Below, one piece after another: positions 24,209 through 34,871 of a stretch of DNA of 64,000 bases. The position numbers and the translations under genes are program-made. The notes below the pieces were generated by a model. The model was not told the DNA's origin, did no database searches, and was given only the letters and a program-made list of their open reading frames with translations. Within the stretch, counting starts at the first letter, position 1. The number at the start of each line of letters is the position of its first letter. Source of the DNA: Naegleria gruberi (taxonomy: Eukaryota); the NCBI GenBank assembly GCA_000004985.1, contig GG738884.1; one strand, 5' to 3'.

Positions 24209-26140
24209 ATGGGAAAGAGAGAATTATACAGAAATAAACAAGCTTTGGCTAATGCTGCTCCTCTGGCTCAAGCACACTCCCAACCGCTTGGTATTACCAT
24301 CGGAGCACGTACATCTAATGTAAAGATGCCTAAGGAGGCCATTCCAGCCATCTATTATGAAAAGATTTTAAAATACATGAAAACAAAGGAAATGTTGAAT
24401 GATATTGCAGGAGCTTGCACTAAATATTTGTACAAACCATCGGATTGGAAGTATTATTACTTTGAACATCGTTGGAAGGAATATTCTAACGTGAGAAGAG
24501 CCTTGCGTAAATTAATTCAAATGGGAACACTTCAAGTCTTGTTGAGAGGAAAGTATTATAAGGAAGAGACTTCTGATCCAGAAGCTATTACAAGTGGTGG
24601 TGCCTCTTCTTCTACTGATAATAATCAATCAGCTGATGCTAGTAATGTTGCTTCCGAAGAAGTTTTACAAGTAAAAGAAGAAGAATTTGAAACTTTTGTA
24701 ATTGGAGGAAGAACATTAACTAGAAAAAAGTATGTAAAGGCTTCTTCTGTGCCATCGAATAAGAAGGCCACCACTCCAGTTGATCAAGAGGAAATTCAAA
24801 TTGAAGAAGAAGAAACAATTAATCAACAAGCAATGAATAAGAAGAATAAGAAGAAGAATAAGAAAAACAAAAAGAAGGATCCTTTTGAATTGGATGAGGA
24901 AAATGATGATCAAGATGATGGAACTTTTGATGGATTTGAAATTACCAGAGATGAGGATCGTCCACAATTATATGAATTGAATGAATGGAAAGATGATCCA
25001 AAGAAGAATAAGAAACAAAATAAGAAACAAAACAAAAAGCAAAGTTCTAGTTTGGAAATTGAAGAAGATACTTTTGTAAAGGAAGAAGAAGGTGGTGATA
25101 AGGGAATTCCTTCTAAAGCTGTACATATTGATTTTAATAATATCAAAAAGATTGTAAAGGCAACTGAAAAGATTGATTGTGCTGAAAATGAAGCAGTTCA
25201 GAATATTACTCTCAACTTGACAAGAAAATCAAAGGAAGAATCATCCAGCTCTCAGAAAACTGTGATTCAGGTTGTTAAAGGTGACATGTTGGAAACTGCA
25301 ATTAGTTTGAGAAGGATTTGTAAACTTAATCCACTCGTTTTGGTCTCTGGTAGCCAAACTGTTCCAGGAGGATCTTTTGCTAAGGGAGGAAATACTCAAG
25401 AGGAAGATTTCTGTAGAAGATCATCATTGTCTTTAGCAATTGCTGATCCATACAGATTTGATGAAACTAGAGAGTGGACTTACCCATTACCTGAATTTGG
25501 AGGAATTTATACACCAAATGTTGTAGTGTTAAGAGGTCCAAAGAGCGATGGATATGCCTTCTTGGATAGAACATGGGCTTGCTCAATGTTTATCACCTAT
25601 CCTTATGTGAATCCACCAACAGAGAAGAGAAAGGTAGCCGATCCAAATACTGTCATTCCAAATGAAGAGGACGATGACGAAGAAGTAACAACTGAGAATT
25701 TCCTCTCTACCAAATTGTCCAACTCAATGAAGAAGAAGATTGCTGCCTACTTTGATGTTGCATTAAAGAAGGGTCATGATTCTCTTGTTATTGGTGCTCT
25801 TGGTTGTGAAAATACTCACTCCAATCCTGCCTATCATATTGCTCAACTTTTCAAGGAAGTATTGGCAAGTGAAATTTTCAAGGACAAGTTCAAGGTTGTC
25901 ATTTTCTCTATTTTGGTTGATAAGGAAACTGATAGCAAGTTGGCCAATGAAGGTGGTGCTGACGATGTGGAAGAAGTTGAGGATAATGATGACGTCGAAG
26001 ATCAACAAGATATCTCAACCAATCTGCTCGATACTTCAATTGAAAGAAAGAATAATCTTTCAGTATTTTCCAAATTATTCCACGGAAAGGAAGAAGCTCC
26101 AACAGCTGAAGAATTCATTCCAACCATTGAATGTAAATAA
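24209..26140 (+). CDS. Protein with a C-terminal bacterial-type PARG / DUF2263 (TIGR02452) macro-like domain and a Lys/Glu-rich central region.
   Basis: ATG at 24209. The C-terminal domain reads ...PLVLVSGSQTVPGGSFAKGGNTQEEDFCRRSSLSLAI...YTPNVVVLRG...DSLVIGALGCENTHSNPAYHIAQLFKEVL. This matches the mPARG diphosphate-binding loop and the catalytic QEE (NFAS.GGG...G...AQEE.LCR.S.L) and the second loop (LVLGA.GCGVF.NDP). The central region has KKNKKKNKKNKKK and KKNKKQNKKQNKKQ repeats. Confidence 0.6.
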   Translation: MGKRELYRNKQALANAAPLAQAHSQPLGITIGARTSNVKMPKEAIPAIYYEKILKYMKTKEMLNDIAGACTKYLYKPSDWKYYYFEHRWKEYSNVRRALRKLIQMGTLQVLLRGKYYKEETSDPEAITSGGASSSTDNNQSADASNVASEEVLQVKEEEFETFVIGGRTLTRKKYVKASSVPSNKKATTPVDQEEIQIEEEETINQQAMNKKNKKKNKKNKKKDPFELDEENDDQDDGTFDGFEITRDEDRPQLYELNEWKDDPKKNKKQNKKQNKKQSSSLEIEEDTFVKEEEGGDKGIPSKAVHIDFNNIKKIVKATEKIDCAENEAVQNITLNLTRKSKEESSSSQKTVIQVVKGDMLETAISLRRICKLNPLVLVSGSQTVPGGSFAKGGNTQEEDFCRRSSLSLAIADPYRFDETREWTYPLPEFGGIYTPNVVVLRGPKSDGYAFLDRTWACSMFITYPYVNPPTEKRKVADPNTVIPNEEDDDEEVTTENFLSTKLSNSMKKKIAAYFDVALKKGHDSLVIGALGCENTHSNPAYHIAQLFKEVLASEIFKDKFKVVIFSILVDKETDSKLANEGGADDVEEVEDNDDVEDQQDISTNLLDTSIERKNNLSVFSKLFHGKEEAPTAEEFIPTIECK

Positions 26141-27531: not shown

Positions 27532-29586
27532 ATGGGACAAAACCATTCAGGTGGATCAAATTCTGTGGGTGGAATGGGAGGAACACTAGTTGGAGATCAA
27601 TACAAACCACCAGATCGTACCACAAACAATCTAGCTTCCTCCTTTCATACCAAAGAATCCATCAAAATTCAACAGCAGCAACAACAACAACCCGATTCAA
27701 ATACAAACAACAATAATACATCGTCAGGTAATCTTGTTCTGATAGCAGCATCCAACACTTCCGATGCCTTGCTCATGTCCATCGCAGAGTTAGTCATTGT
27801 TCTCCAACAATTGGGTGAGATTCATCTCGTTGTCTTGCTGGAGGAAATTTCTCGTCACTACTACGAGATTCAAATTGGAGGCAATTTTTCTTCTCTGGAA
27901 GCAATTGCTGCTGCTAACAATAACACACAAGGAAATGGCGCCACTTCTCCAACACAAAATTTACAGGGTGGTGGCCCTCTCGCCAGTACATCATTTAAAA
28001 ATGGCGCCACTGGAAATTATGGCAACTCGAATGTAGATAATGGTCTGAAGAAGTACATTAATTGTGCCAAGTATACTCCCACTTGGTTGGAAGATGAGGG
28101 TGTATTTGGAGGTGGTGGTGGTATCGGAAGTGGATCGATTGGTAGAGGGAGTAGAATTAGTATTGGAGCAACATCAGGAAATAATGGCATGGATGAAGAT
28201 GATATGGAGGAGGATTATGGTGTAAATTATAATACGGATTCTGCTTTTCAGGTCTGGTTGATTGCATTGAAGGATAGACAATTACCGAGATTTAAGAGAA
28301 AATTGGAAAAGTTATTTGTGGATAATAGTGGAGGAGCAAGGAAGGTTGCCTTCTCTTTCAATGTACAAATGTCAACCTCATCGACAAATAGTTTGAGAAG
28401 AGCTTCTTCATTCCTACACGCACAAACTAATCCAAAAACTAATTATGTCATTGATATGGATAGTAAGCAGAAATATTTTGAGGTGAGGTCAGAGATGGAA
28501 ATTATTCTCACTCATACTCTTGAGGAAATTAAAGATTTGAAAGAATGTTTGGATGCAAAGAGAAAAATCGAAGGAGGAACATCAAGTACCAGTGGAGCTG
28601 ATGTTGCCGATGTTTCGGTTCTCCTTCAAGATTTTGATTTTGAATGTAGTTGGTGGGAGAAGAAGATTGGCTCCTCCAATTTCAGTGTCAAGAAGAAGGC
28701 ATTTATTGATGCCATTGAAGAAACTTTTGCTCACTTGAAAGTCAAGTTTGAAATTGAGGTTTTGGAAGAGATTTCAGATCCAACTTGTGATGGAGTTGTA
28801 AGTGTGACAGATTTGAAAACTCTCACTAGATGGTTGGGCAGTATTTACAAGTGGAATACTGACGAATTGAAATTGAGAAATATTGCTGGAAAAGAAGATG
28901 CTGCACCAGTTATTTTCCTTCCTCATTTTTGGGGTTCAGTGACATGTTACGATGCACAAGATATTTTACAAAAGGAAGAACCTGGAACGTACATTATTCG
29001 TTTCAATGAGAACGAGCCTGGGCATTACTACATTTCATGTGTTCAGGAAAATGTTGTGGAAAATGAGGAGACTAGCTCAAATACTGGATTTTTTGCCACT
29101 CGTCAAGTGTATCACTTTGTATTGAAGAGAGGAAAAACTGAGAAGGGAGAACCTTACTATTACTTGTCCGATGCTGATAAGAGTCACAAATTCAAGACCA
29201 TTACTGAGCTACTTGATAAGAATTACTTTTTGACATTCAAATATCCATATGTCAATGACGATCTCAAGTCTGCATTTGTTTCAAAGAAGAGAGATGTCGA
29301 TGTCTTTGGTGCATTGAAGAGTTTATCAGGAGAGGGTGATGATTTGAATCCTTATCCATTTGTTGTATATAAGGGAAAGTTCAATGTTAATGAAAAGAAG
29401 AAGGAATCAGACATGAAAAAGATTGCCAATTTAGCTAAAAAGACTACTGAGCCGTCATTGGGCAATCCAGTCAATAATAATTCATCCTCAAGCATTAAAG
29501 ATCAAGAACCAGGTATGGTACGAGTGGATTCCCTCAATTTACCACTGAGTAATAGCAAGGAAGAAACTTTAGATTTATCTGAATAA
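27532..29586 (+). CDS. N-myristoylation-motif protein (MGQNHSG) with a C-terminal SH2 domain.
   Basis: ATG at 27532. SH2 core FWGSVTCYDAQDILQKEEPGTYIIRFNENEPGHYYISCV ... YHFVL (pattern W.G.ISR..AE..L....GTFLIRxSES.PG.Y.LSV), with the Arg in IRFNE as the conserved phosphotyrosine-binding Arg. The N-terminus has a polyQ tract and Gly-rich segments. Confidence 0.6.
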   Translation: MGQNHSGGSNSVGGMGGTLVGDQYKPPDRTTNNLASSFHTKESIKIQQQQQQQPDSNTNNNNTSSGNLVLIAASNTSDALLMSIAELVIVLQQLGEIHLVVLLEEISRHYYEIQIGGNFSSLEAIAAANNNTQGNGATSPTQNLQGGGPLASTSFKNGATGNYGNSNVDNGLKKYINCAKYTPTWLEDEGVFGGGGGIGSGSIGRGSRISIGATSGNNGMDEDDMEEDYGVNYNTDSAFQVWLIALKDRQLPRFKRKLEKLFVDNSGGARKVAFSFNVQMSTSSTNSLRRASSFLHAQTNPKTNYVIDMDSKQKYFEVRSEMEIILTHTLEEIKDLKECLDAKRKIEGGTSSTSGADVADVSVLLQDFDFECSWWEKKIGSSNFSVKKKAFIDAIEETFAHLKVKFEIEVLEEISDPTCDGVVSVTDLKTLTRWLGSIYKWNTDELKLRNIAGKEDAAPVIFLPHFWGSVTCYDAQDILQKEEPGTYIIRFNENEPGHYYISCVQENVVENEETSSNTGFFATRQVYHFVLKRGKTEKGEPYYYLSDADKSHKFKTITELLDKNYFLTFKYPYVNDDLKSAFVSKKRDVDVFGALKSLSGEGDDLNPYPFVVYKGKFNVNEKKKESDMKKIANLAKKTTEPSLGNPVNNNSSSSIKDQEPGMVRVDSLNLPLSNSKEETLDLSE

Positions 29587-29765
29587 ATACTTCAGAAGAT
29601 TCAATGTAAATAGATTAAGTATATTCAATTAAACAGAAAAGTTTGAAACTGGTATGACTCTTGCATTCTTACATAAGAATGTATACCCTGTTTTGGAGTG
29701 TCAAGACAATATGATATTCATTGTTAGCTATGGTTACTGGCAATAAAAATATGTGAAGCCAAAAG

Positions 29766-29852
29766 CTCCGATGAGACGGAATCGAACCGCCGACCACAGG
29801 ATTACAGTTTTTCTTGCTACAGTCCCATGCTCTACCAGCTGAGCTATCATCG
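29766..29852 (-). tRNA. tRNA-Tyr(GUA): tRNA-Tyr (anticodon GUA) with a 14-nt intron after position 37.
   Basis: Minus-strand sequence CCGATGATAGCTCAGCTGGTAGAGCATGGGACTGTAG[CAAGAAAAACTGTA]ATCCTGTGGTCGGCGGTTCGATTCCGTCTCATCGG A. The acceptor stem is 7 bp. D-arm GCTC/GAGC. Anticodon loop CUGUAGA. T-arm GGCGG-TTCGATT-CCGTC. Discriminator A. Confidence 0.8.
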
Positions 29853-29967
29853 GTTACATATGTAAAGAAAAGTTTTATGTTCATCATGTACTGAGTTCCA
29901 AGTCCAATTAAGGGACTTGGGTGAAAACATTGCTCACAATCGTGTAGTTCAGAGTATAAATGTGAAA

Positions 29968-30038
29968 TCGGGTGTGGTATAGTGGTAGCATTCCAGACTG
30001 TCACTCTGGCGACCCGGGTTCAATTCCCGGCACTCGAG
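29968..30038 (+). tRNA. tRNA-Asp(GUC): tRNA-Asp (anticodon GUC).
   Basis: TCGGGTGTGGTATAGTGGTAGCATTCCAGACTGTCACTCTGGCGACCCGGGTTCAATTCCCGGCACTCGA G. U1-A72 as in metazoan and fungal tRNA-Asp. Anticodon stem CCAGA/TCTGG, loop CUGUCAC. T-arm CCGGG-TTCAATT-CCCGG. One A-C mismatch in the D-stem. Confidence 0.8.
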
Positions 30039-30317
30039 TAATAATTTTATGTTTATTCAATTCTTCGATATTTTTGCTTTTCAATATTTTGTGATCTGAT
30101 AGTCCACATCCTTATCTTGATTATTCATTTTTTATTTTTTAATAATTATTCTTATTTCCTTTTTTAGAAGCCTCGTCCTGACCACTATTTTTTTCAAATG
30201 AGTTAACAAGCTCTCTAAACTCAAAATCATCATGTTCTATAGAGGAAACGTATCTCTCCCATCCAATGTATGGTAAAATTTGAATAATAATAACAATTCT
30301 GAACTTTTCAAAAAAAA

Positions 30318-31407
30318 ATGAAATTTCTTGAACTTCCTCCTGAAATCGCTTGCATTATTCGTTGCTTTCTCATACGGGAAAATAATTCATCATCAATATC
30401 GGAATGTAAATTCAAATTTTCACATATTTCTACCAATCAACACGAGGAAATTATTTCATTCTATATGAAATTGGAAACTGAATGGTTTAAATTAAAAAAT
30501 GATCATATTTGGGTCGATTTATTGGAATATGAAGCTAAAAATTGTAATTTATCTGATTTGCAATTGAGCAAGTGGAAGAAACAATTTAAAAAGAATATCA
30601 ATTTTAGAAGGAAAGTATTATTAGTGAGATGGGCAAGAGCTCAATATATTACAAATATTTTGGAAAAAGACCTGCCAATGAATGGTGTGAAAGAGAGTTT
30701 GGTCTCCTTATTGGGAATAAGTATGTATTATAATGTCGTTTCATATAATTTCTAAATTTCAATTCGATTGTGTGTGAAATTCTAATATATAGGTGGAGTT
30801 GGTAAAACATCAATTTGTAATTACTTTGCAATGGGCCATTTCTATGAAGATTATTCGTGTGGAATTGAGGACACTACACGAAAAATGATAAATCCAAGCT
30901 TTGGTGGAGGTTGGTGATTCGTATGGAGATTACGAATTCTCAGCCATGCTGGAACACACTCTGAAAAGGTATCATTCATCAATTTATGTATTTTCCACAT
31001 CTCATTCCCTAGATGAACAAGTTGTGACTTCTACACGAAAGTTGTTTAATTCATTGCTGAGAGCGAGAGATAGGGAGTGGAATGATTTCCCAGTTCTGTT
31101 TGCAATTAACAAAGTTGATATTCCAGATCAGAAAAGAAGGAGCTCCATTGAAAATATTCAATCATTCATTGGAACAATTATTGAGGAATTTGATTTGAGA
31201 AATACAGCAATATTCGAAACAAGTGCAAGAGAAGGAATTAATATCAATGAAATATTCGAACATGTTGTGCTGAAAATGGAATATTATGAACAGTTTCCAT
31301 TCCTCCCTGCCTTGGAAGATGTACTTGTTAACGATATTGAAGCCCTCAAAAACTTGGAATTATGGAATATAACAAGAAGAAAACAAAGAAAGTGTCTTGT
31401 TTGTTGA
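30318..31407 (+). CDS. Divergent Ras-family small GTPase with an approximately 130-aa N-terminal F-box-like extension and a C-terminal polybasic-CaaX (KQRKCLVC). Exon 1 is 30318..30720, the intron is 30721..30792, and exon 2 runs from 30793. There is an apparent +1 frameshift at about 30900..30915.
   Basis: Exon 1 ends ...LVSLLGI-S, with a GTATGT donor at 30721. The acceptor is tatatag|GT GGA GTT GGT AAA ACA, giving the P-loop GISGVGKTSICNYF. Switch I reads YSCGIEDTTRKMINPSFGGGW* and stops. Frame +1 continues VEVGDSYGDYEFSAM...LFAINKVDIP (NKxD)...FETSAREGINI (G5)...KQRKCLVC. The catalytic DTAGQ is replaced by GDSYG, so there is no Gln61 equivalent. Confidence 0.55.
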
Positions 31408-31846
31408 AAAGTGGTAGGAGGATAAGCATTAGTTGGAGTCATGATGCTTTGTAATGACTATCATCCAATTTCACCATTTCGAAATCAAGTAAATAATAAT
31501 ATTAATTTGCACAACAATAATTTTTATTAATTGTTGTGGTGCAAAACAGGAGAGAAGTGATGCAACAAAACTATAAACACCACAACCCTTTTTCGTTCAA
31601 CCTAAGTGACTTCATGTTCGGAAGCGACAAACTTGCTATTTACAAAATAATAACAATAACAAGCTTGGCACTTTCAAAGTATTCCAAAATCTTTTCGCAT
31701 AGAATCTTTGAGACATGAGGTAGGAGTGCTGTTCTAAAATTTAGAAACGAGCACATCCTGGCGGAAATCACCTCAGTCGAAGATGGAGAGAAGAACCAAC
31801 ACAATTACACCACACTCTCCTCTTTGCTTTTTAGAGATGAGGGCGT

Positions 31847-32125
31847 TTAGACCTTGGTTGGTGCTCTCTTCAATGCCTTCTTTTCAGCAATCAAAGCAGC
31901 ATGCTCCTTCTTTTGAGCAACAACTTGTTGTTGTTTATCAATGCTGTTCAACTTCATCTTCATTGGATCTTGACCAGTCTTCAAGGATTCATATCTACAA
32001 TTGCAGAGGTATCTCTTCTTGGCTCTACCAGTCTTTTCCTTTTCAGTGTTCTTTTGTGGGTCGACCTTTGGAGTTTGGTTCTTAACTTTACCAGCACGTG
32101 CGAGGGATCCGTGAACTTTTGCCAT
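31847..32125 (-). CDS. RPS30: Ribosomal protein eS30 (40S S30) with a C-terminal extension of about 28 aa.
   Basis: ATG at 32125. [61 protein letters not shown] matches yeast eS30 ([50 protein letters not shown]). It then continues [31 protein letters not shown]. Confidence 0.6.
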
Positions 32126-32390
32126 TTTGTGTCAATATATTGTTTCTGTTTTTTTTTTGTTTTATTTTTAAAATAATTTTTTATTGGTTGGGTTATTTAT
32201 TTTACAATGACCGGTTCAATTTTGAGTTTTATCTTACCTTCAGCCAAAATCAAATCTGTACTTGCTTTTCTTTTAATTTACAATAGAAAATTTATTACAC
32301 AACTAGGTATGCCAATTGTAGTCACCACAACGTTATTAACTGTGAAAAGGTAATTATTTATTCAAATATTATCATGTAAAATAACTACTC

Positions 32391-33566
32391 TTAGTCTTGG
32401 TCTGCATAGACAATTGGTTCACTTCTTGCAAATGAATGGTCATATCTGGTCAAATCAATATTATCCTCAGCCTCACCGAGTCCTGTAATTCCCTTTAGAA
32501 TGGTATTCAACTCTATTACTTTCCATTCCAATGCATCTTCTGTTGATCCATTGACAAGTCCCAAATCTAATGTGAAATTATCAAATGGAACGTGCTTGGT
32601 AATGAGAGAGCACATCTTTCTAATTGGTTCCATCATGTTATCATTATATTTAATATAATTCTTTCCTGTGACAAAGGACCATCCTTCATTTCCTTCATCA
32701 ATAACATAGTGCAACATTTGATCGATAATGATACATCTCATTTCTTTGAGAATGTTAACTTTTGGTCGAGCAATGTATAATTCTTCATACAGATTCAAAT
32801 CTCTCATTCTCTCAAAGAAGAGATTGCAACGAGTTGATCTTTGAATGTGATCCATCAATTCATTCCAACCATTTCTGGTGGTTTCGTACAAACATTCTGC
32901 AGAAACATCTTTAGGGGAGCAACCATCACATCTCACAAAGACTGAATCAAGATGATGAACTGATTTCAATTCGAGGAATTCCTCCTCTTCCCTAATAATA
33001 TGAATTGGAGATATTAACAATTGATTAACAGCTTGCTCAGATCCAAACGATTTCTTCAATGTTTCAAACCATTGTGAAAGATCGAAACTTCTCTGAATTT
33101 TAGCCAACACAGCAGTCATTGACTTTCTCATAACAAAAACAACATTATCATCGTGAAATAGATCATCTTCCTCGGAGGCTTTCTTAGAATGTTTGATAAT
33201 AAACTTGTCCATCTCCTTACTCTCATCTTGCTCCAATCTAAATTTTCTAAGATTTTGCAAATCATCAAGATGAATCATTCTACAAGTAGATTCTTCATCA
33301 CCATTATTGGATTCCTCTGCTTCTTCATCACCATTTAGAGGCTCATCAAGAAAATGATCCATAAAGATTCTCCTAGAGATTAAACTCCATTCATGATTGA
33401 ATTGTTGAAGATTATTCTCTTCCGAGGAAATAGCTTGCACATTATCCAAATGCGACATTCTACCCAAATCATTCGGATAGGCCCACTTGAGAGAATACAT
33501 TTGTTTAATACTCTCCTGAAGATTATTATTCGGCAAGGGACGAAACTCTAACTTGGCAACGAACAT
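32391..33566 (-). CDS. Hypothetical acidic protein of 391 aa.
   Basis: Single ORF. I recognise no family. Confidence 0.35.
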   Translation of the reverse strand: MFVAKLEFRPLPNNNLQESIKQMYSLKWAYPNDLGRMSHLDNVQAISSEENNLQQFNHEWSLISRRIFMDHFLDEPLNGDEEAEESNNGDEESTCRMIHLDDLQNLRKFRLEQDESKEMDKFIIKHSKKASEEDDLFHDDNVVFVMRKSMTAVLAKIQRSFDLSQWFETLKKSFGSEQAVNQLLISPIHIIREEEEFLELKSVHHLDSVFVRCDGCSPKDVSAECLYETTRNGWNELMDHIQRSTRCNLFFERMRDLNLYEELYIARPKVNILKEMRCIIIDQMLHYVIDEGNEGWSFVTGKNYIKYNDNMMEPIRKMCSLITKHVPFDNFTLDLGLVNGSTEDALEWKVIELNTILKGITGLGEAEDNIDLTRYDHSFARSEPIVYADQD

Positions 33567-33692: not shown

Positions 33693-34871
33693 CTATTCCC
33701 AATCTAGATGGACTAAATGTGTTAAATAGGGAGATGTTGAAATTGGGGCACTTGTGGTCAATTCATTGCATGCTACTGTGAATGATGTTAAATGTTTCAA
33801 ATTGGGAGTATTGCATAATATTTCACATCCTTCATCCAGTATTTCATTAGAGGAAATGTCCAATTTAGTCAAGTTGGTGAGGGTTTTACTTTCTGCAATT
33901 GCCTTGCAACCGTTCAGACCTAGCTCACATTCTTCCACCAATAGTGTTTTCAAATTGGAGGCATTAGGTCCATGGACAATCTTTTCAAATGCTTTACTTC
34001 CAATTACACAATACATCAAGGAGAGGAGCGTTAAATTTCTCAAGGCAGGACCATTTCCTATATACTCACAACCTTCAATTCCAATATTGTGACATTGATC
34101 CAAAATAAGCTCACTAATGTTGGAGCATACAGAGCTGAAACAGAGATTACGAAGCGAGGATAGCGAGATAGGATTACAGGAAATATTCAAATGAACCAAT
34201 CGATGTCCAAACAGGGAAATTTCTTCAATAGCACTCGAATTATTTAGACAATCAAAAATTCTCAAAATTTCAATTGGACTAGCTTGAAGGAATTGCCTCA
34301 ATAAATCAGCACTTATTCTCATTCCATCCATGCGAAGGGATGTTAATTTTGGTAAATATCCATTAGAAAGATCAATCTCACGACAGAATATTTGCAAGGT
34401 TTTCAAATTTTCCAATGCTGAAATCTCAATTGTTCCAATGTCATGTCCTTCCAACTCTAAAACTTCCAATTTCGAAAAGGCCCCACTAGAAAAGCTCAAA
34501 TAACTAATTTCTCTGAGAAAATTCATTTTCAGAACCCTCAACTCTCTTCCTAAATTCTCGAAAATACATTTCAAATTTTTCTGATTAATACTCGGACTGA
34601 CTTTCAAACTTGTTAATTTTTCTAACATTCCACTCTCGAATATATTTGTTAATATTTCATCATCATTGATATCTTTTACATGTAAACTCTCGATCATGTA
34701 TTTACATTTAAAATTAACATTACAAGGAAAGTTTCTAATAGTAATAGACAACGGAATATTTCTAGCTTTTTCACACCAAAATTTGTTAATTAATGAGAAG
34801 GCTTTGATGATCTCCATGTGATCCGAGAAGAGAAGAATGTGATAAATCTCATCAGAGAGTTGTAATGTCAT
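33693..34871 (-). CDS. F-box-like N-terminus followed by RNI-type leucine-rich repeats.
   Basis: ATG at 34871. The N-terminus LSDEIYHILLFSDHMEIIKAFSLINKFWCEKAR is F-box-like. At least 10 LRRs follow, for example LRNLTLLSLMYCVIGSKAFEKI... and LTNLTKLDISSNEILDEGCEIL. Confidence 0.6.
   Translation of the reverse strand: MTLQLSDEIYHILLFSDHMEIIKAFSLINKFWCEKARNIPLSITIRNFPCNVNFKCKYMIESLHVKDINDDEILTNIFESGMLEKLTSLKVSPSINQKNLKCIFENLGRELRVLKMNFLREISYLSFSSGAFSKLEVLELEGHDIGTIEISALENLKTLQIFCREIDLSNGYLPKLTSLRMDGMRISADLLRQFLQASPIEILRIFDCLNNSSAIEEISLFGHRLVHLNISCNPISLSSLRNLCFSSVCSNISELILDQCHNIGIEGCEYIGNGPALRNLTLLSLMYCVIGSKAFEKIVHGPNASNLKTLLVEECELGLNGCKAIAESKTLTNLTKLDISSNEILDEGCEILCNTPNLKHLTSFTVACNELTTSAPISTSPYLTHLVHLDWE

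What the first reader, a model, noticed from the sequence alone, without database searches (positions are those of the whole stretch)
30318..31407. Ras-like GTPase with an N-terminal F-box-like extension, no catalytic Gln, and an apparent +1 frameshift
Splicing the 72-nt intron (30721..30792) rebuilds a correct P-loop, GISGVGKT. NKVD, ETSAR and a polybasic-CLVC prenylation tail are present. Switch II reads VGDSYGD instead of DTAGQ, and switch I lacks the conserved Thr. The reading frame shifts by +1 inside a G-run (about 30903..30915). This is either a hydrolysis-dead pseudo-GTPase with an assembly indel, or a decaying pseudogene. The roughly 130-aa N-terminal extension begins MKFLELPPEIACIIRCFL, which is F-box-like.
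Basis: seen in the sequence. Interest (0 to 1): 0.55.

Follow-up and report, generated by a model that had tools for sequence, protein, structure and literature searches.

The report
Frameshifted Naegleria Ras-like GTPase pseudogene
This is an already catalogued Naegleria gruberi Ras-family gene with an F-box-like front end and a lipid-anchor tail; in the reference strain two missing bases break its reading frame, so it is most likely a young pseudogene and not a new kind of protein.

Summary
The sequence features are real. Removing the 72-nt GT..AG intron (30721..30792) rebuilds the P-loop GISGVGKT. NKVD, ETSAR and RRKQRK-CLVC are present. The Ras G12, T35 and Q61 equivalents are S, G and D. 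The frame changes between 30892 and 30914.

The window is Naegleria gruberi NEG-M. The public model XP_002674418.1 ("ras family small GTPase") hides the frameshift behind a 103-nt "intron" (30910..31012) that deletes switch II and beta4. A syntenic contig from a closely related Naegleria carries an intact ORF. Against it the window lacks two separate A's (TCACAAGCATTTGG -> TCCAAGCTTTGG, about 30894..30900). The lesion is therefore not a homopolymer slip in the "G-run".

Herman et al. 2021 (BMC Biol, Table S8) already list this gene as a putative Ras pseudogene. It belongs to a family in Naegleria and Willaertia with an N-extension, a Ras domain and a polybasic CaaX tail; most members lack Gln61.

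The family N-extension matches verified F-boxes in a profile comparison (hhalign 88.8%, P 2.5e-6). The window copy alone gives no Pfam hit, and the structure models were uninformative.

Verdict: ordinary birth-and-death decay in a known expanded family. Interest is low. An assembly error or a heterozygous intact allele is not excluded.

The parts
30318..30720 (+). Exon 1: Met1 to the first base of codon 135. It encodes the ~125-aa N-terminal extension, beta1 and the first half of the P-loop.
   Evidence: The ORF and splice junction were read directly. It is identical to the first 134 aa of the public model XP_002674418.1. It aligns with the N-extensions of paralogues.
30318..30560 (+). F-box-like region (residues 1-81): LELPPEIACIIRCFL ... 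SHISTNQ ... HIWVDLLEYE.
   Evidence: The family profile matched against 9 Pfam-verified F-boxes gives hhalign 85.7-88.8%, P 5e-6 to 2.5e-6. Column-shuffle nulls reach at most 15.7 against a real score of 32.8. This copy alone has no Pfam F-box hit.
30721..30792 (+). Genuine intron: 72 nt, GTATGT...TATAG, phase 1, splitting the P-loop codon for Ser135.
   Evidence: Its removal restores GISGVGKT and the homology to Ras. The public model uses it. Its aligned 3' 66 nt (30727..30792) are identical in the related genomic contig L001.
30793..30917 (+). Exon 2 read in the upstream frame: the rest of the P-loop, alpha1, switch I (YSCGIEDTTRK), then PSFGGGW and a premature TGA (30915..30917).
   Evidence: Translation gives a truncated product of 175 aa.
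30894..30900 (+). Lesion site. The window reads TC-CAAGC-TTTGG where the intact relative reads TCACAAGCATTTGG. Two single-A losses give a net -2, which changes the frame by +1.
   Evidence: Alignment of the window with L001. Re-inserting the two A's gives an uninterrupted 339-aa ORF. The intact version has the same beta2-beta3 length as the closest paralogue.
30892..31407 (+). Continuation of the coding sequence in frame +1: beta3, switch II DSYGD (30916..30930), NKVD (31108..31119), ETSAR (31216..31230), a C-terminal helical extension, RRKQRK-CLVC (31375..31404) and the stop codon (31405..31407).
   Evidence: The stretch is stop-free for 172 codons, against 0 of 5000 shuffles.
30910..31012 (+). 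The 103-nt "intron" of the public gene model XP_002674418.1 (GTTGGT...CCCTAG). It is judged an annotation artefact that restores the frame by deleting 34 codons (switch II, alpha2, beta4).
   Evidence: Splicing the window this way reproduces the 304-aa public protein exactly. The stretch encodes family-conserved Ras residues in frame. In the relative, which has a continuous ORF, the stretch is 103/103 identical and removing it would break the frame.

Best explanation
The locus is a recently disabled copy of a Ras-family small GTPase from a family found in Naegleria and Willaertia (Heterolobosea).

The intact protein, about 339 aa, has four parts:
- an N-terminal F-box-like helical extension;
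- a Ras-type G domain that keeps the nucleotide-binding motifs (GxxxxGKT, DxxG, NKxD, SAx) but has Ser, Gly and Asp at the Ras Gly12, Thr35 and Gln61 positions;
- a short C-terminal helical extension;
- a polybasic CaaX tail (CLVC).

Inferred function of intact family members: a farnesylated, membrane-bound GTPase that hydrolyses GTP slowly or not at all. Its F-box-like head could dock to Skp1 in an SCF ubiquitin ligase.

In the reference strain NEG-M, two single-base losses at about 30894..30900 shift the frame. Translation stops after 175 residues, before G3-G5 and the lipid anchor, so the product should be non-functional.

The public gene model conceals this with an artificial 103-nt intron.

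Shown: the gene structure, the lesion, the intact relative, the family membership and the earlier curation as a putative pseudogene. Inferred: that the lesion is real in the organism, the loss of function, Skp1 binding, prenylation and the hydrolysis defect.
For: - Organism and gene. The best database hit is N. gruberi XP_002674418.1. The window reproduces it exactly with the 72-nt and 103-nt splices.
- Ras domain. It spans the frame break: Pfam Ras 45.8 bits and R-Ras/Rap1 E 1e-17 to 1e-12. In tblastn, the alignments that reach the break (nine of the eleven paralogues compared) end their frame-0 part at 30884..30893 and begin their frame +1 part at 30892..30919.
- Intact relative. L001 is genomic and syntenic with RPS30. 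No substitutions were seen in 99 nt upstream of the lesion (30793..30891) or across 30910..31012. It reads RKMINHKHLVEVGDSYGD without interruption.
- Ancestral state. The closest paralogue XP_002680941.1 has the same beta2-beta3 length as the intact allele, so the window state is the derived one.
- Relaxed constraint. There are 7 nonsynonymous and 2 synonymous changes, dN/dS about 0.9, and omega <= 0.2 is rejected at p = 0.04. Amino-acid divergence is 7/168 here against 0/143, 2/166 and 4/209 for three paralogues between the same two genomes.
- Independent curation. Herman et al. 2021 Table S8 lists "Ras XP_002674418.1 putative pseudogene: yes". Their supplement describes birth-and-death evolution in the divergent Rab-like GTPase clades, and Table S8 also flags several other Ras-family genes as putative pseudogenes.
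- Family architecture. It is shared with N. gruberi, N. lovaniensis and Willaertia magna proteins.
- F-box similarity. hhalign 88.8%, P 2.5e-6 against shuffle nulls. Five members and the family consensus give sub-threshold Pfam hits to F-box families.
Against: - Apart from the one lesion the gene is pristine. Both splice sites, 134 + 33 + 172 codons and the CaaX tail are intact. That also fits a reference-sequence error or a very young or heterozygous null allele.
- No NEG-M reads or transcripts could be inspected.
- The intact relative comes from a different Naegleria genome (about 1.5-2% diverged). It shows the ancestral state, not the state in NEG-M.
- The dN/dS estimate rests on 9 substitutions.
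Confidence: 0.7

Rival explanations
1. The frameshift is an error of the reference assembly, or only one of two alleles in a heterozygous strain. NEG-M then makes an intact 339-aa atypical GTPase from this locus.
For: Everything except the 2-nt deficit is intact. The 172-codon downstream frame has no stop, against 0 of 5000 shuffles. The splice sites are intact. A closely related genome has the intact ORF. Herman et al. note that some N. gruberi Ras genes are found only in unassembled reads, so the assembly is imperfect.
Against: The two missing bases are separate and lie in non-homopolymer sequence. That is not a typical sequencing slip. Curators who corrected many other gene models left this one flagged as a pseudogene. 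dN/dS of about 0.9 and raised protein divergence relative to paralogues suggest weak constraint on this gene anyway.
Confidence: 0.2
2. The public model is right. A 103-nt intron (30910..31012) is spliced out, producing a 304-aa protein that lacks switch II, alpha2 and beta4.
For: The stretch has GT..AG ends, and its length (103, which is 1 mod 3) restores the frame. The resulting protein is the deposited XP_002674418.1.
Against: The "intron" encodes in frame the family-conserved DxxG, SAM and beta4 residues that align to Ras. In the intact relative the same 103 nt are identical, and removing them would break the frame. The donor GTTGGT is unlike the GTATGT donor of the gene's verified intron. 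A G domain without G3 and a core strand is unlikely to fold; this last point is inference.
Confidence: 0.05
3. Programmed +1 ribosomal frameshifting, for example antizyme-like at UGG-UGA-U (30912..30918), joins the two frames during translation.
For: The frame-0 stop context UGG UGA U would allow a +1 shift into GAU UCG UAU GGA (DSYG).
Against: The intact relative and the closest paralogue both encode this region as one continuous frame, so no shift site is conserved. A shift at the stop codon would replace the conserved beta3 residues LVEV with GGGW. No known slippery motif lies in 30892..30900, where the shift would have to occur to keep beta3.
Confidence: 0.02

Closest known systems
N. gruberi XP_002680941.1 (closest paralogue; corrected model in Herman et al. 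2021 Table S8)
   Same: Same architecture and 52% identity over the C-terminal 138 residues. It starts MSLLVLPSELVEIIRSFL.., and shares the LLEYEAKNCN motif, the NK[VI]DIP and ETSA[RK] motifs and the C-terminal -C[IL][LV]C. It also has a non-Thr switch I.
   Different: The paralogue has an uninterrupted ORF and has lost the DxxG motif altogether (LKLYTHDEY). It is well conserved between the two Naegleria genomes (2/166 differences), whereas the window copy is frameshifted and has diverged faster.
Naegleria F-box + GTPase fusions (Rab-like, Rho, Ran, G-alpha) described by Herman et al. 2021, BMC Biol, Suppl. Material 4
   Same: An N-terminal F-box or F-box-like extension sits in front of a divergent small-GTPase domain. 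One subgroup has a CaaX tail. The expansions are lineage-specific and include copies with disrupted coding sequence ("birth-and-death").
   Different: Those authors class the present gene and its relatives as Ras family and list no extra domain for them. The F-box similarity found here is sub-threshold in Pfam and is visible only by profile-profile comparison.
RhoBTB (atypical Rho GTPase fused to BTB domains, a Cullin-3 adaptor)
   Same: A small-GTPase domain with non-canonical catalytic residues is fused to a module that recruits a cullin-RING ligase. Herman et al. draw the same general parallel, "GTPase-dependent ubiquitination".
   Different: The adaptor module differs (BTB/Cul3 against putative F-box/Skp1-Cul1). 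The order of the domains differs. The GTPase is of the Rho family, not the Ras family. RhoBTB has no CaaX tail (this last point is from general knowledge, not tested here).
TbFRP (FYVE - F-box - GTPase protein of Euglenozoa; Exp Parasitol 2013, PMC3593210)
   Same: An F-box lies upstream of a Ras-like GTPase domain in another group of Discoba. The role of that F-box is also unknown.
   Different: TbFRP has a FYVE domain for membrane binding instead of a CaaX tail, and its GTPase is closest to Rab18. The authors found no N. gruberi orthologue.
R-Ras / Rap1 (closest solved structures)
   Same: Best sequence matches in the PDB (E 2.8e-17 and about 2e-12). They share G1, DxxG, NKxD, SAK and a CaaX-type tail.
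   Different: About 30% identity. The window protein has S/G/D at positions 12/35/61, a beta2-beta3 hairpin about 3-4 residues shorter, a ~125-aa N-extension and a ~40-aa C-extension. The ORF is broken in the window.

Membership tests
Ras family small GTPase (Pfam PF00071) | Domain score above the Pfam gathering threshold | tested here: met
   45.8 bits against a cut-off of 21.6, E 6.5e-12, on the spliced and frame-repaired protein. The best PDB matches are R-Ras and Rap1.
Ras family small GTPase (Pfam PF00071) | G1 P-loop GxxxxGK[ST] | tested here: met
   GISGVGKT, formed only after removal of the 72-nt intron. The position equivalent to Ras Gly12 is Ser (alignment).
Ras family small GTPase (Pfam PF00071) | G2 / switch I Thr (Ras Thr35) | tested here: not met
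   YSCGIED aligns to YDPTIED, so Thr is replaced by Gly (30861..30863). In the family alignment 7 of 14 members keep Thr.
Ras family small GTPase (Pfam PF00071) | G3 DxxGQ with the catalytic Gln61 | tested here: not met
   DSYGD: Asp57 and Gly60 are kept and Gln61 is replaced by Asp. Only 2 of 14 family members keep Gln.
Ras family small GTPase (Pfam PF00071) | G4 NKxD and G5 SAx guanine-specificity motifs | tested here: met
   NKVD at 31108..31119 and ETSAR at 31216..31230.
Ras family small GTPase (Pfam PF00071) | C-terminal CaaX prenylation signal | tested here: met
   RRKQRK-CLVC followed by the stop codon. A CaaX tail is conserved across the family. Prenylation itself cannot be tested here.
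Ras family small GTPase (Pfam PF00071) | Uninterrupted coding sequence | tested here: not met
   The frame changes between 30892 and 30914, with a premature TGA at 30915..30917.
F-box domain (Pfam PF00646 / PF12937 clan) | Pfam score above the gathering threshold | tested here: not met
   The window copy has no F-box hit at E <= 10. Relatives give only sub-threshold hits: P0011 PF13013 E 0.0012, the closest paralogue PF13013 E 0.0057, P0009 PF12937 E 0.007, P0066 E 0.056, P0058 E 0.11.
F-box domain (Pfam PF00646 / PF12937 clan) | Profile-level similarity across the whole ~45-residue F-box (LPxE[IL]xxxI, V.K.W, LW..L) | tested here: met
   Family N-terminal profile against 9 F-boxes that each pass the Pfam thresholds: hhalign 88.8%, P 2.5e-6, 45 aligned columns. 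A longer query gave 85.7%. 400 column-shuffled controls reached at most 15.7 against the real score of 32.8, and a reversed control scored 7.3. This is a family-level result.
F-box domain (Pfam PF00646 / PF12937 clan) | Three-helix F-box fold | tested here: inconclusive
F-box domain (Pfam PF00646 / PF12937 clan) | Binding to Skp1 | not testable with these tools
   Needs a pull-down, a two-hybrid assay or a complex prediction with Naegleria Skp1.
Unitary pseudogene / null allele | A disabling lesion relative to an intact orthologous sequence | tested here: met
   A net 2-nt deficit against the syntenic contig L001, which has a continuous ORF. Flagged as a putative pseudogene in Herman et al. 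2021 Table S8.
Unitary pseudogene / null allele | Relaxed selective constraint | tested here: inconclusive
   dN/dS is about 0.9 (7 nonsynonymous, 2 synonymous). Omega <= 0.2 is rejected at p = 0.04, but omega of 0.3-0.5 is not rejected. Protein divergence is 2-3 times that of the paralogues.
Unitary pseudogene / null allele | The lesion is present in the organism (not an assembly error), and no full-length product is made | not testable with these tools
   No reads or transcripts are available. Exact-product look-ups in public assemblies found nothing.
Programmed +1 ribosomal frameshift site | The shift site and two-frame organisation are conserved in relatives | tested here: not met
   The relative and the closest paralogue encode the region in one frame.

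The most novel reading that the evidence does not exclude
The Ras-family expansion to which this gene belongs could consist of true F-box proteins. It comprises dozens of genes in N. gruberi, plus N. lovaniensis and Willaertia, and is so far listed with no extra domain. Its members would then be farnesylated, membrane-anchored SCF substrate receptors whose variable, mostly Gln61-less Ras domain acts as the GTP-dependent target-binding module. That would be a Ras-family counterpart of RhoBTB. The window copy would be a null allele segregating within the N. gruberi complex, which is direct evidence of ongoing turnover in that family.
Probability: 0.35. Interest if true: 0.45.

Novelty: already known. 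Interest (0 to 1): 0.2.

Why it matters
It matters little on its own. The gene is in GenBank, and a 2021 curated survey already marked it as a putative pseudogene in a family known for rapid gene birth and death.

There are two small useful points. First, the deposited protein XP_002674418.1 is an artefact: an invented 103-nt intron removes switch II and beta4, so it should not be used in alignments or domain counts. Second, the N-extension shared by this Ras-family clade is probably a diverged F-box. That would extend the known Naegleria theme of F-box + GTPase fusions (Rab, Rho, Ran, G-alpha) to the Ras family, and it supports the idea that GTPase-linked ubiquitination is widely used in these amoebae.

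Tried and rejected
- Exact-product look-ups in public assemblies. I searched for the window's ORFs (30901..31407 with L or M start, an ATG-start version, the exon-1 ORF) and for the public model. None is on record, so no independent NEG-M or transcript contig was obtained.
- JGI metagenome scan with the intact relative. 303 pattern matches, none confirmed.
- N-terminal family profile against PDB sequences and against the 5.8-billion-protein set. No hits. hmmsearch is too weak for this short, diverged domain.
- Structure prediction of the frame-repaired full-length protein.
- A second short intron as the cause of the frame change. Rejected because the homology to Ras is continuous across 30860..30950 and the overlap of the two open frames is only 23 nt.
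- Antizyme-like +1 frameshifting at UGG-UGA-U. Rejected because relatives use a single frame and beta3 would be lost.
- Tandem paralogues in the window. None found by tblastn.
- Literature searches for the sample accession PRJEB11402 and for the gene's accession numbers. Nothing found.
- Rfam scan of 28000..33000. Only two tRNAs, and nothing within the gene.

Full report
**What is in the sequence**

An ATG at 30318 opens a frame that runs to a GT at 30721. The 72 nt from 30721 to 30792 (GTATGT...TATAG) have GT..AG ends and are phase 1. Removing them joins ..LLGI-S|GVGKT and creates the P-loop GISGVGKT. In that frame the protein continues through alpha1 and switch I (FYEDYSCGIEDTTRK). It then reads MINPSFGGGW and stops at TGA 30915..30917 after 175 residues.

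The +1 frame is open from 30892 to the TGA at 31405..31407. It encodes LVEVGDSYGDYEFSAM..., NKVD (31108..31119), ETSAR (31216..31230) and RRKQRK-CLVC. None of 5000 composition-matched shuffles of that stretch is free of stops, so it is coding sequence or was until very recently.

With one base removed anywhere in 30892..30914, the joined protein scores 45.8 bits on Pfam Ras (cut-off 21.6). It aligns end to end with R-Ras (E 2.8e-17) and Rap1 (about 2e-12). In those alignments Ser, Gly and Asp occupy the positions of Ras Gly12, Thr35 and Gln61. Asp57, Gly60, NKxD and SAx are retained.

**Origin and the public annotation**

A search of 5.8 billion proteins returned two close hits. P0001 is XP_002674418.1 / EFC41674.1 / D2VNK2, "ras family small GTPase [Naegleria gruberi strain NEG-M]". 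The window reproduces this 304-aa protein exactly if 30910..31012 is spliced out in addition to the 72-nt intron.

That 103-nt "intron" (GTTGGT...CCCTAG) has a length of 1 mod 3, so it restores the frame. It also deletes 34 codons that encode switch II, alpha2 and beta4. These residues align to Ras and to every paralogue. I regard this intron as a gene-prediction artefact.

**The intact relative and the nature of the lesion**

P0002 is a 192-aa ORF on a 1768-nt ENA metagenome contig (L001). The contig is genomic: it starts inside the 72-nt intron. It is syntenic: the RPS30 gene lies downstream on the opposite strand, and then the next gene follows. It is nearly identical to the window.

Across the critical site it reads ...RKMINHKHLVEVGDSYGD... 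in one frame. The DNA there is AAATCACAAGCATTTGG, against AAATC-CAAGC-TTTGG in the window. This amounts to two separate single-A differences with no substitutions. Re-inserting the two A's into the window gives an uninterrupted 339-aa ORF.

The lesion is thus at about 30894..30900, just upstream of the G-rich stretch. It is not a homopolymer slip, because GGTGGAGGTTGG has no run longer than two G.

The intact version has the same beta2-beta3 length as the closest N. gruberi paralogue, whose corrected sequence is given in Herman et al. Table S8. The window state is therefore the derived one.

If the 103-nt stretch were spliced in the relative, its frame would break. The stretch is 103/103 identical in the two genomes.

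**Constraint**

Between the window and L001 the aligned coding sequence has 7 nonsynonymous and 2 synonymous changes, which gives dN/dS of about 0.9. Strong purifying selection (omega <= 0.2) is rejected at p = 0.04, but milder constraint is not.

Overall divergence of the downstream ORF is 1.8%. This is comparable to flanking intergenic DNA (1.65-4%), while RPS30 is 0/279.

Three paralogues compared between the same two genomes differ at 0/143, 2/166 and 4/209 residues, against 7/168 here.

The numbers are small. They point to weak constraint on this gene.

**Prior knowledge**

Herman et al. 2021 (BMC Biol 19:142, PMC8296547) curated all Ras-superfamily genes of N. gruberi and N. fowleri. Their Table S8 lists "Ras XP_002674418.1 - putative pseudogene: yes", with no additional domain. 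The accession occurs only once in the table, so no one-to-one N. fowleri orthologue is recorded.

Their supplementary text reports about 80 Ras-family genes in N. gruberi. [quoted passage not shown] Ras is not in that list.

The gene, its Ras identity and its probable pseudogene status are therefore already on record.

**The family**

An exhaustive HMMER search with P0001 found 59 representatives at E <= 1e-3. The closest is XP_002680941.1 at 52% identity.

A set of 309-366-aa proteins has the same layout: a 105-165-aa N-extension, a Ras domain, a C-terminal helical extension and a polybasic CaaX tail. They come from N. gruberi, N. lovaniensis and Willaertia magna.

In a 14-member alignment, only 2 members keep Gln61 and 7 keep Thr35. 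"No catalytic Gln" is therefore a family trait and not decay of this copy.

Many more members appear in Table S8, and several of them are also flagged as pseudogenes. No paralogue lies elsewhere in the window.

**Is the N-extension an F-box?**

The members share three motifs spaced as in an F-box: LxLPxE[IL]xxxILxF, then [FV]xS[IL]xKxF, then FWWxLF.

Pfam gives only sub-threshold hits to F-box-clan models. It does so repeatedly and always at the N-terminus:
- P0011: PF13013, E 0.0012.
- The closest paralogue: PF13013, E 0.0057.
- P0009: PF12937, E 0.007.
- P0066: E 0.056.
- P0058: E 0.11.
- The family consensus: E 0.021.

The window copy itself gives none.

I built a reference alignment of nine F-boxes. 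Eight were recalled from well-known proteins and one was taken from a Naegleria Rab in Table S8. All nine pass the Pfam thresholds.

Profile-profile comparison of the family N-termini with this reference gave 88.8% probability, P 2.5e-6, over 45 columns covering the whole F-box. A longer query gave 85.7%. Two hundred column shuffles of either side gave mean scores of about 8 and a maximum of 15.7, against the real score of 32.8. The reversed reference scored 7.3.

My reading is that the family N-extension is probably a diverged F-box. For the window copy this rests on homology to its relatives, and Skp1 binding is untested.

**Most likely mechanism**

For intact family members I infer the following:
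- The CaaX tail ends in C, M or Q, which favours farnesylation (established knowledge of prenyltransferase specificity). Together with the polybasic stretch it would anchor the protein to membranes.
- The G domain binds guanine nucleotide, because G1, DxxG, G4 and G5 are kept. The residues at positions 12, 35 and 61 predict slow or absent hydrolysis and a non-classical switch I (established Ras biochemistry).
- The F-box-like head may tether the protein to Skp1/Cul1.

For the window copy, translation ends after switch I. The product lacks G3-G5 and the anchor, so it should be inactive.

The lesion must be young, because nothing else in the gene is damaged.

**Rivals**

- An assembly error or a heterozygous intact allele cannot be excluded without reads (probability about 0.2).
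- The public model's intron has a probability of about 0.05.
- Programmed +1 frameshifting has a probability of about 0.02.

The last two are contradicted by the single-frame relatives and by the coding content of the 103-nt stretch.

**Surroundings**

- A tRNA-Asp(GTC) lies at 29968..30038, 280 nt upstream of the ATG.
- An intron-containing tRNA, evidently Tyr(GTA), lies at 29767..29853 on the minus strand. ARAGORN missed it and Rfam found it.
- Upstream is an SH2-domain protein gene (27532..29586).
- Downstream on the minus strand are RPS30 (31847..32125) and an LRR protein gene (33693..34871).
- Nothing of note lies on the minus strand within the gene, and Rfam finds no RNA family there.

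**Verdict**

The locus is an already catalogued, probably recently inactivated member of a large lineage-specific GTPase family.

The only new points are the exact lesion, the artefactual public model and profile-level support for an F-box in the Ras-family clade.

Interest is 0.2. Novelty: already known.

Noticed in passing
window 29767..29853 (-): An 87-nt tRNA gene with an intron after the anticodon (..GGGACTGTAG/caagaaaaactgt/AATCC..), evidently tRNA-Tyr(GTA). ARAGORN did not report it; Rfam scored it at 54.8 bits.
   Followed up: partly
window 29968..30038 (+): tRNA-Asp(GTC), divergently arranged about 115 nt from the tRNA-Tyr gene and only 280 nt upstream of the GTPase start codon.
   Followed up: no
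window 30910..31012: The deposited protein XP_002674418.1 depends on a 103-nt intron that deletes switch II and beta4. The public model is an artefact and will mislead alignments and domain counts.
   Followed up: yes
closest paralogue XP_002680941.1 (P0003 / P0062; not in the window): The closest paralogue has lost the DxxG motif entirely (LKLYTHDEY), yet it differs at only 2 of 166 residues between the two Naegleria genomes. It may be a constrained pseudo-GTPase, unlike the decaying window copy.
   Followed up: partly
L001 (ENA ERZ929261, contig k127_553571) against window 30727..32490: This metagenome contains a genome of the N. gruberi complex. The contig is syntenic with the window. RPS30 is 279/279 identical, while the intergenic DNA carries 30-nt, 21-nt and 6-nt indels. 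Several other contigs from ENA assemblies (sample not checked) encode near-identical paralogues (P0062, P0064, P0065).
   Followed up: partly
window 27532..29586 (+): A 684-aa ORF with a Gln/Asn-rich N-terminus and a single SH2 domain (Pfam E 1.4e-7). No other domain was detected.
   Followed up: no
window 24209..26140 (+): A 643-aa ORF with a microbial-type poly(ADP-ribose) glycohydrolase catalytic domain (PF10021, E 1.5e-17) in this eukaryotic genome.
   Followed up: no
window 32391..33566 (-): A 391-aa ORF immediately downstream with no Pfam match at E <= 0.001. Its 3' end is conserved in L001.
   Followed up: no
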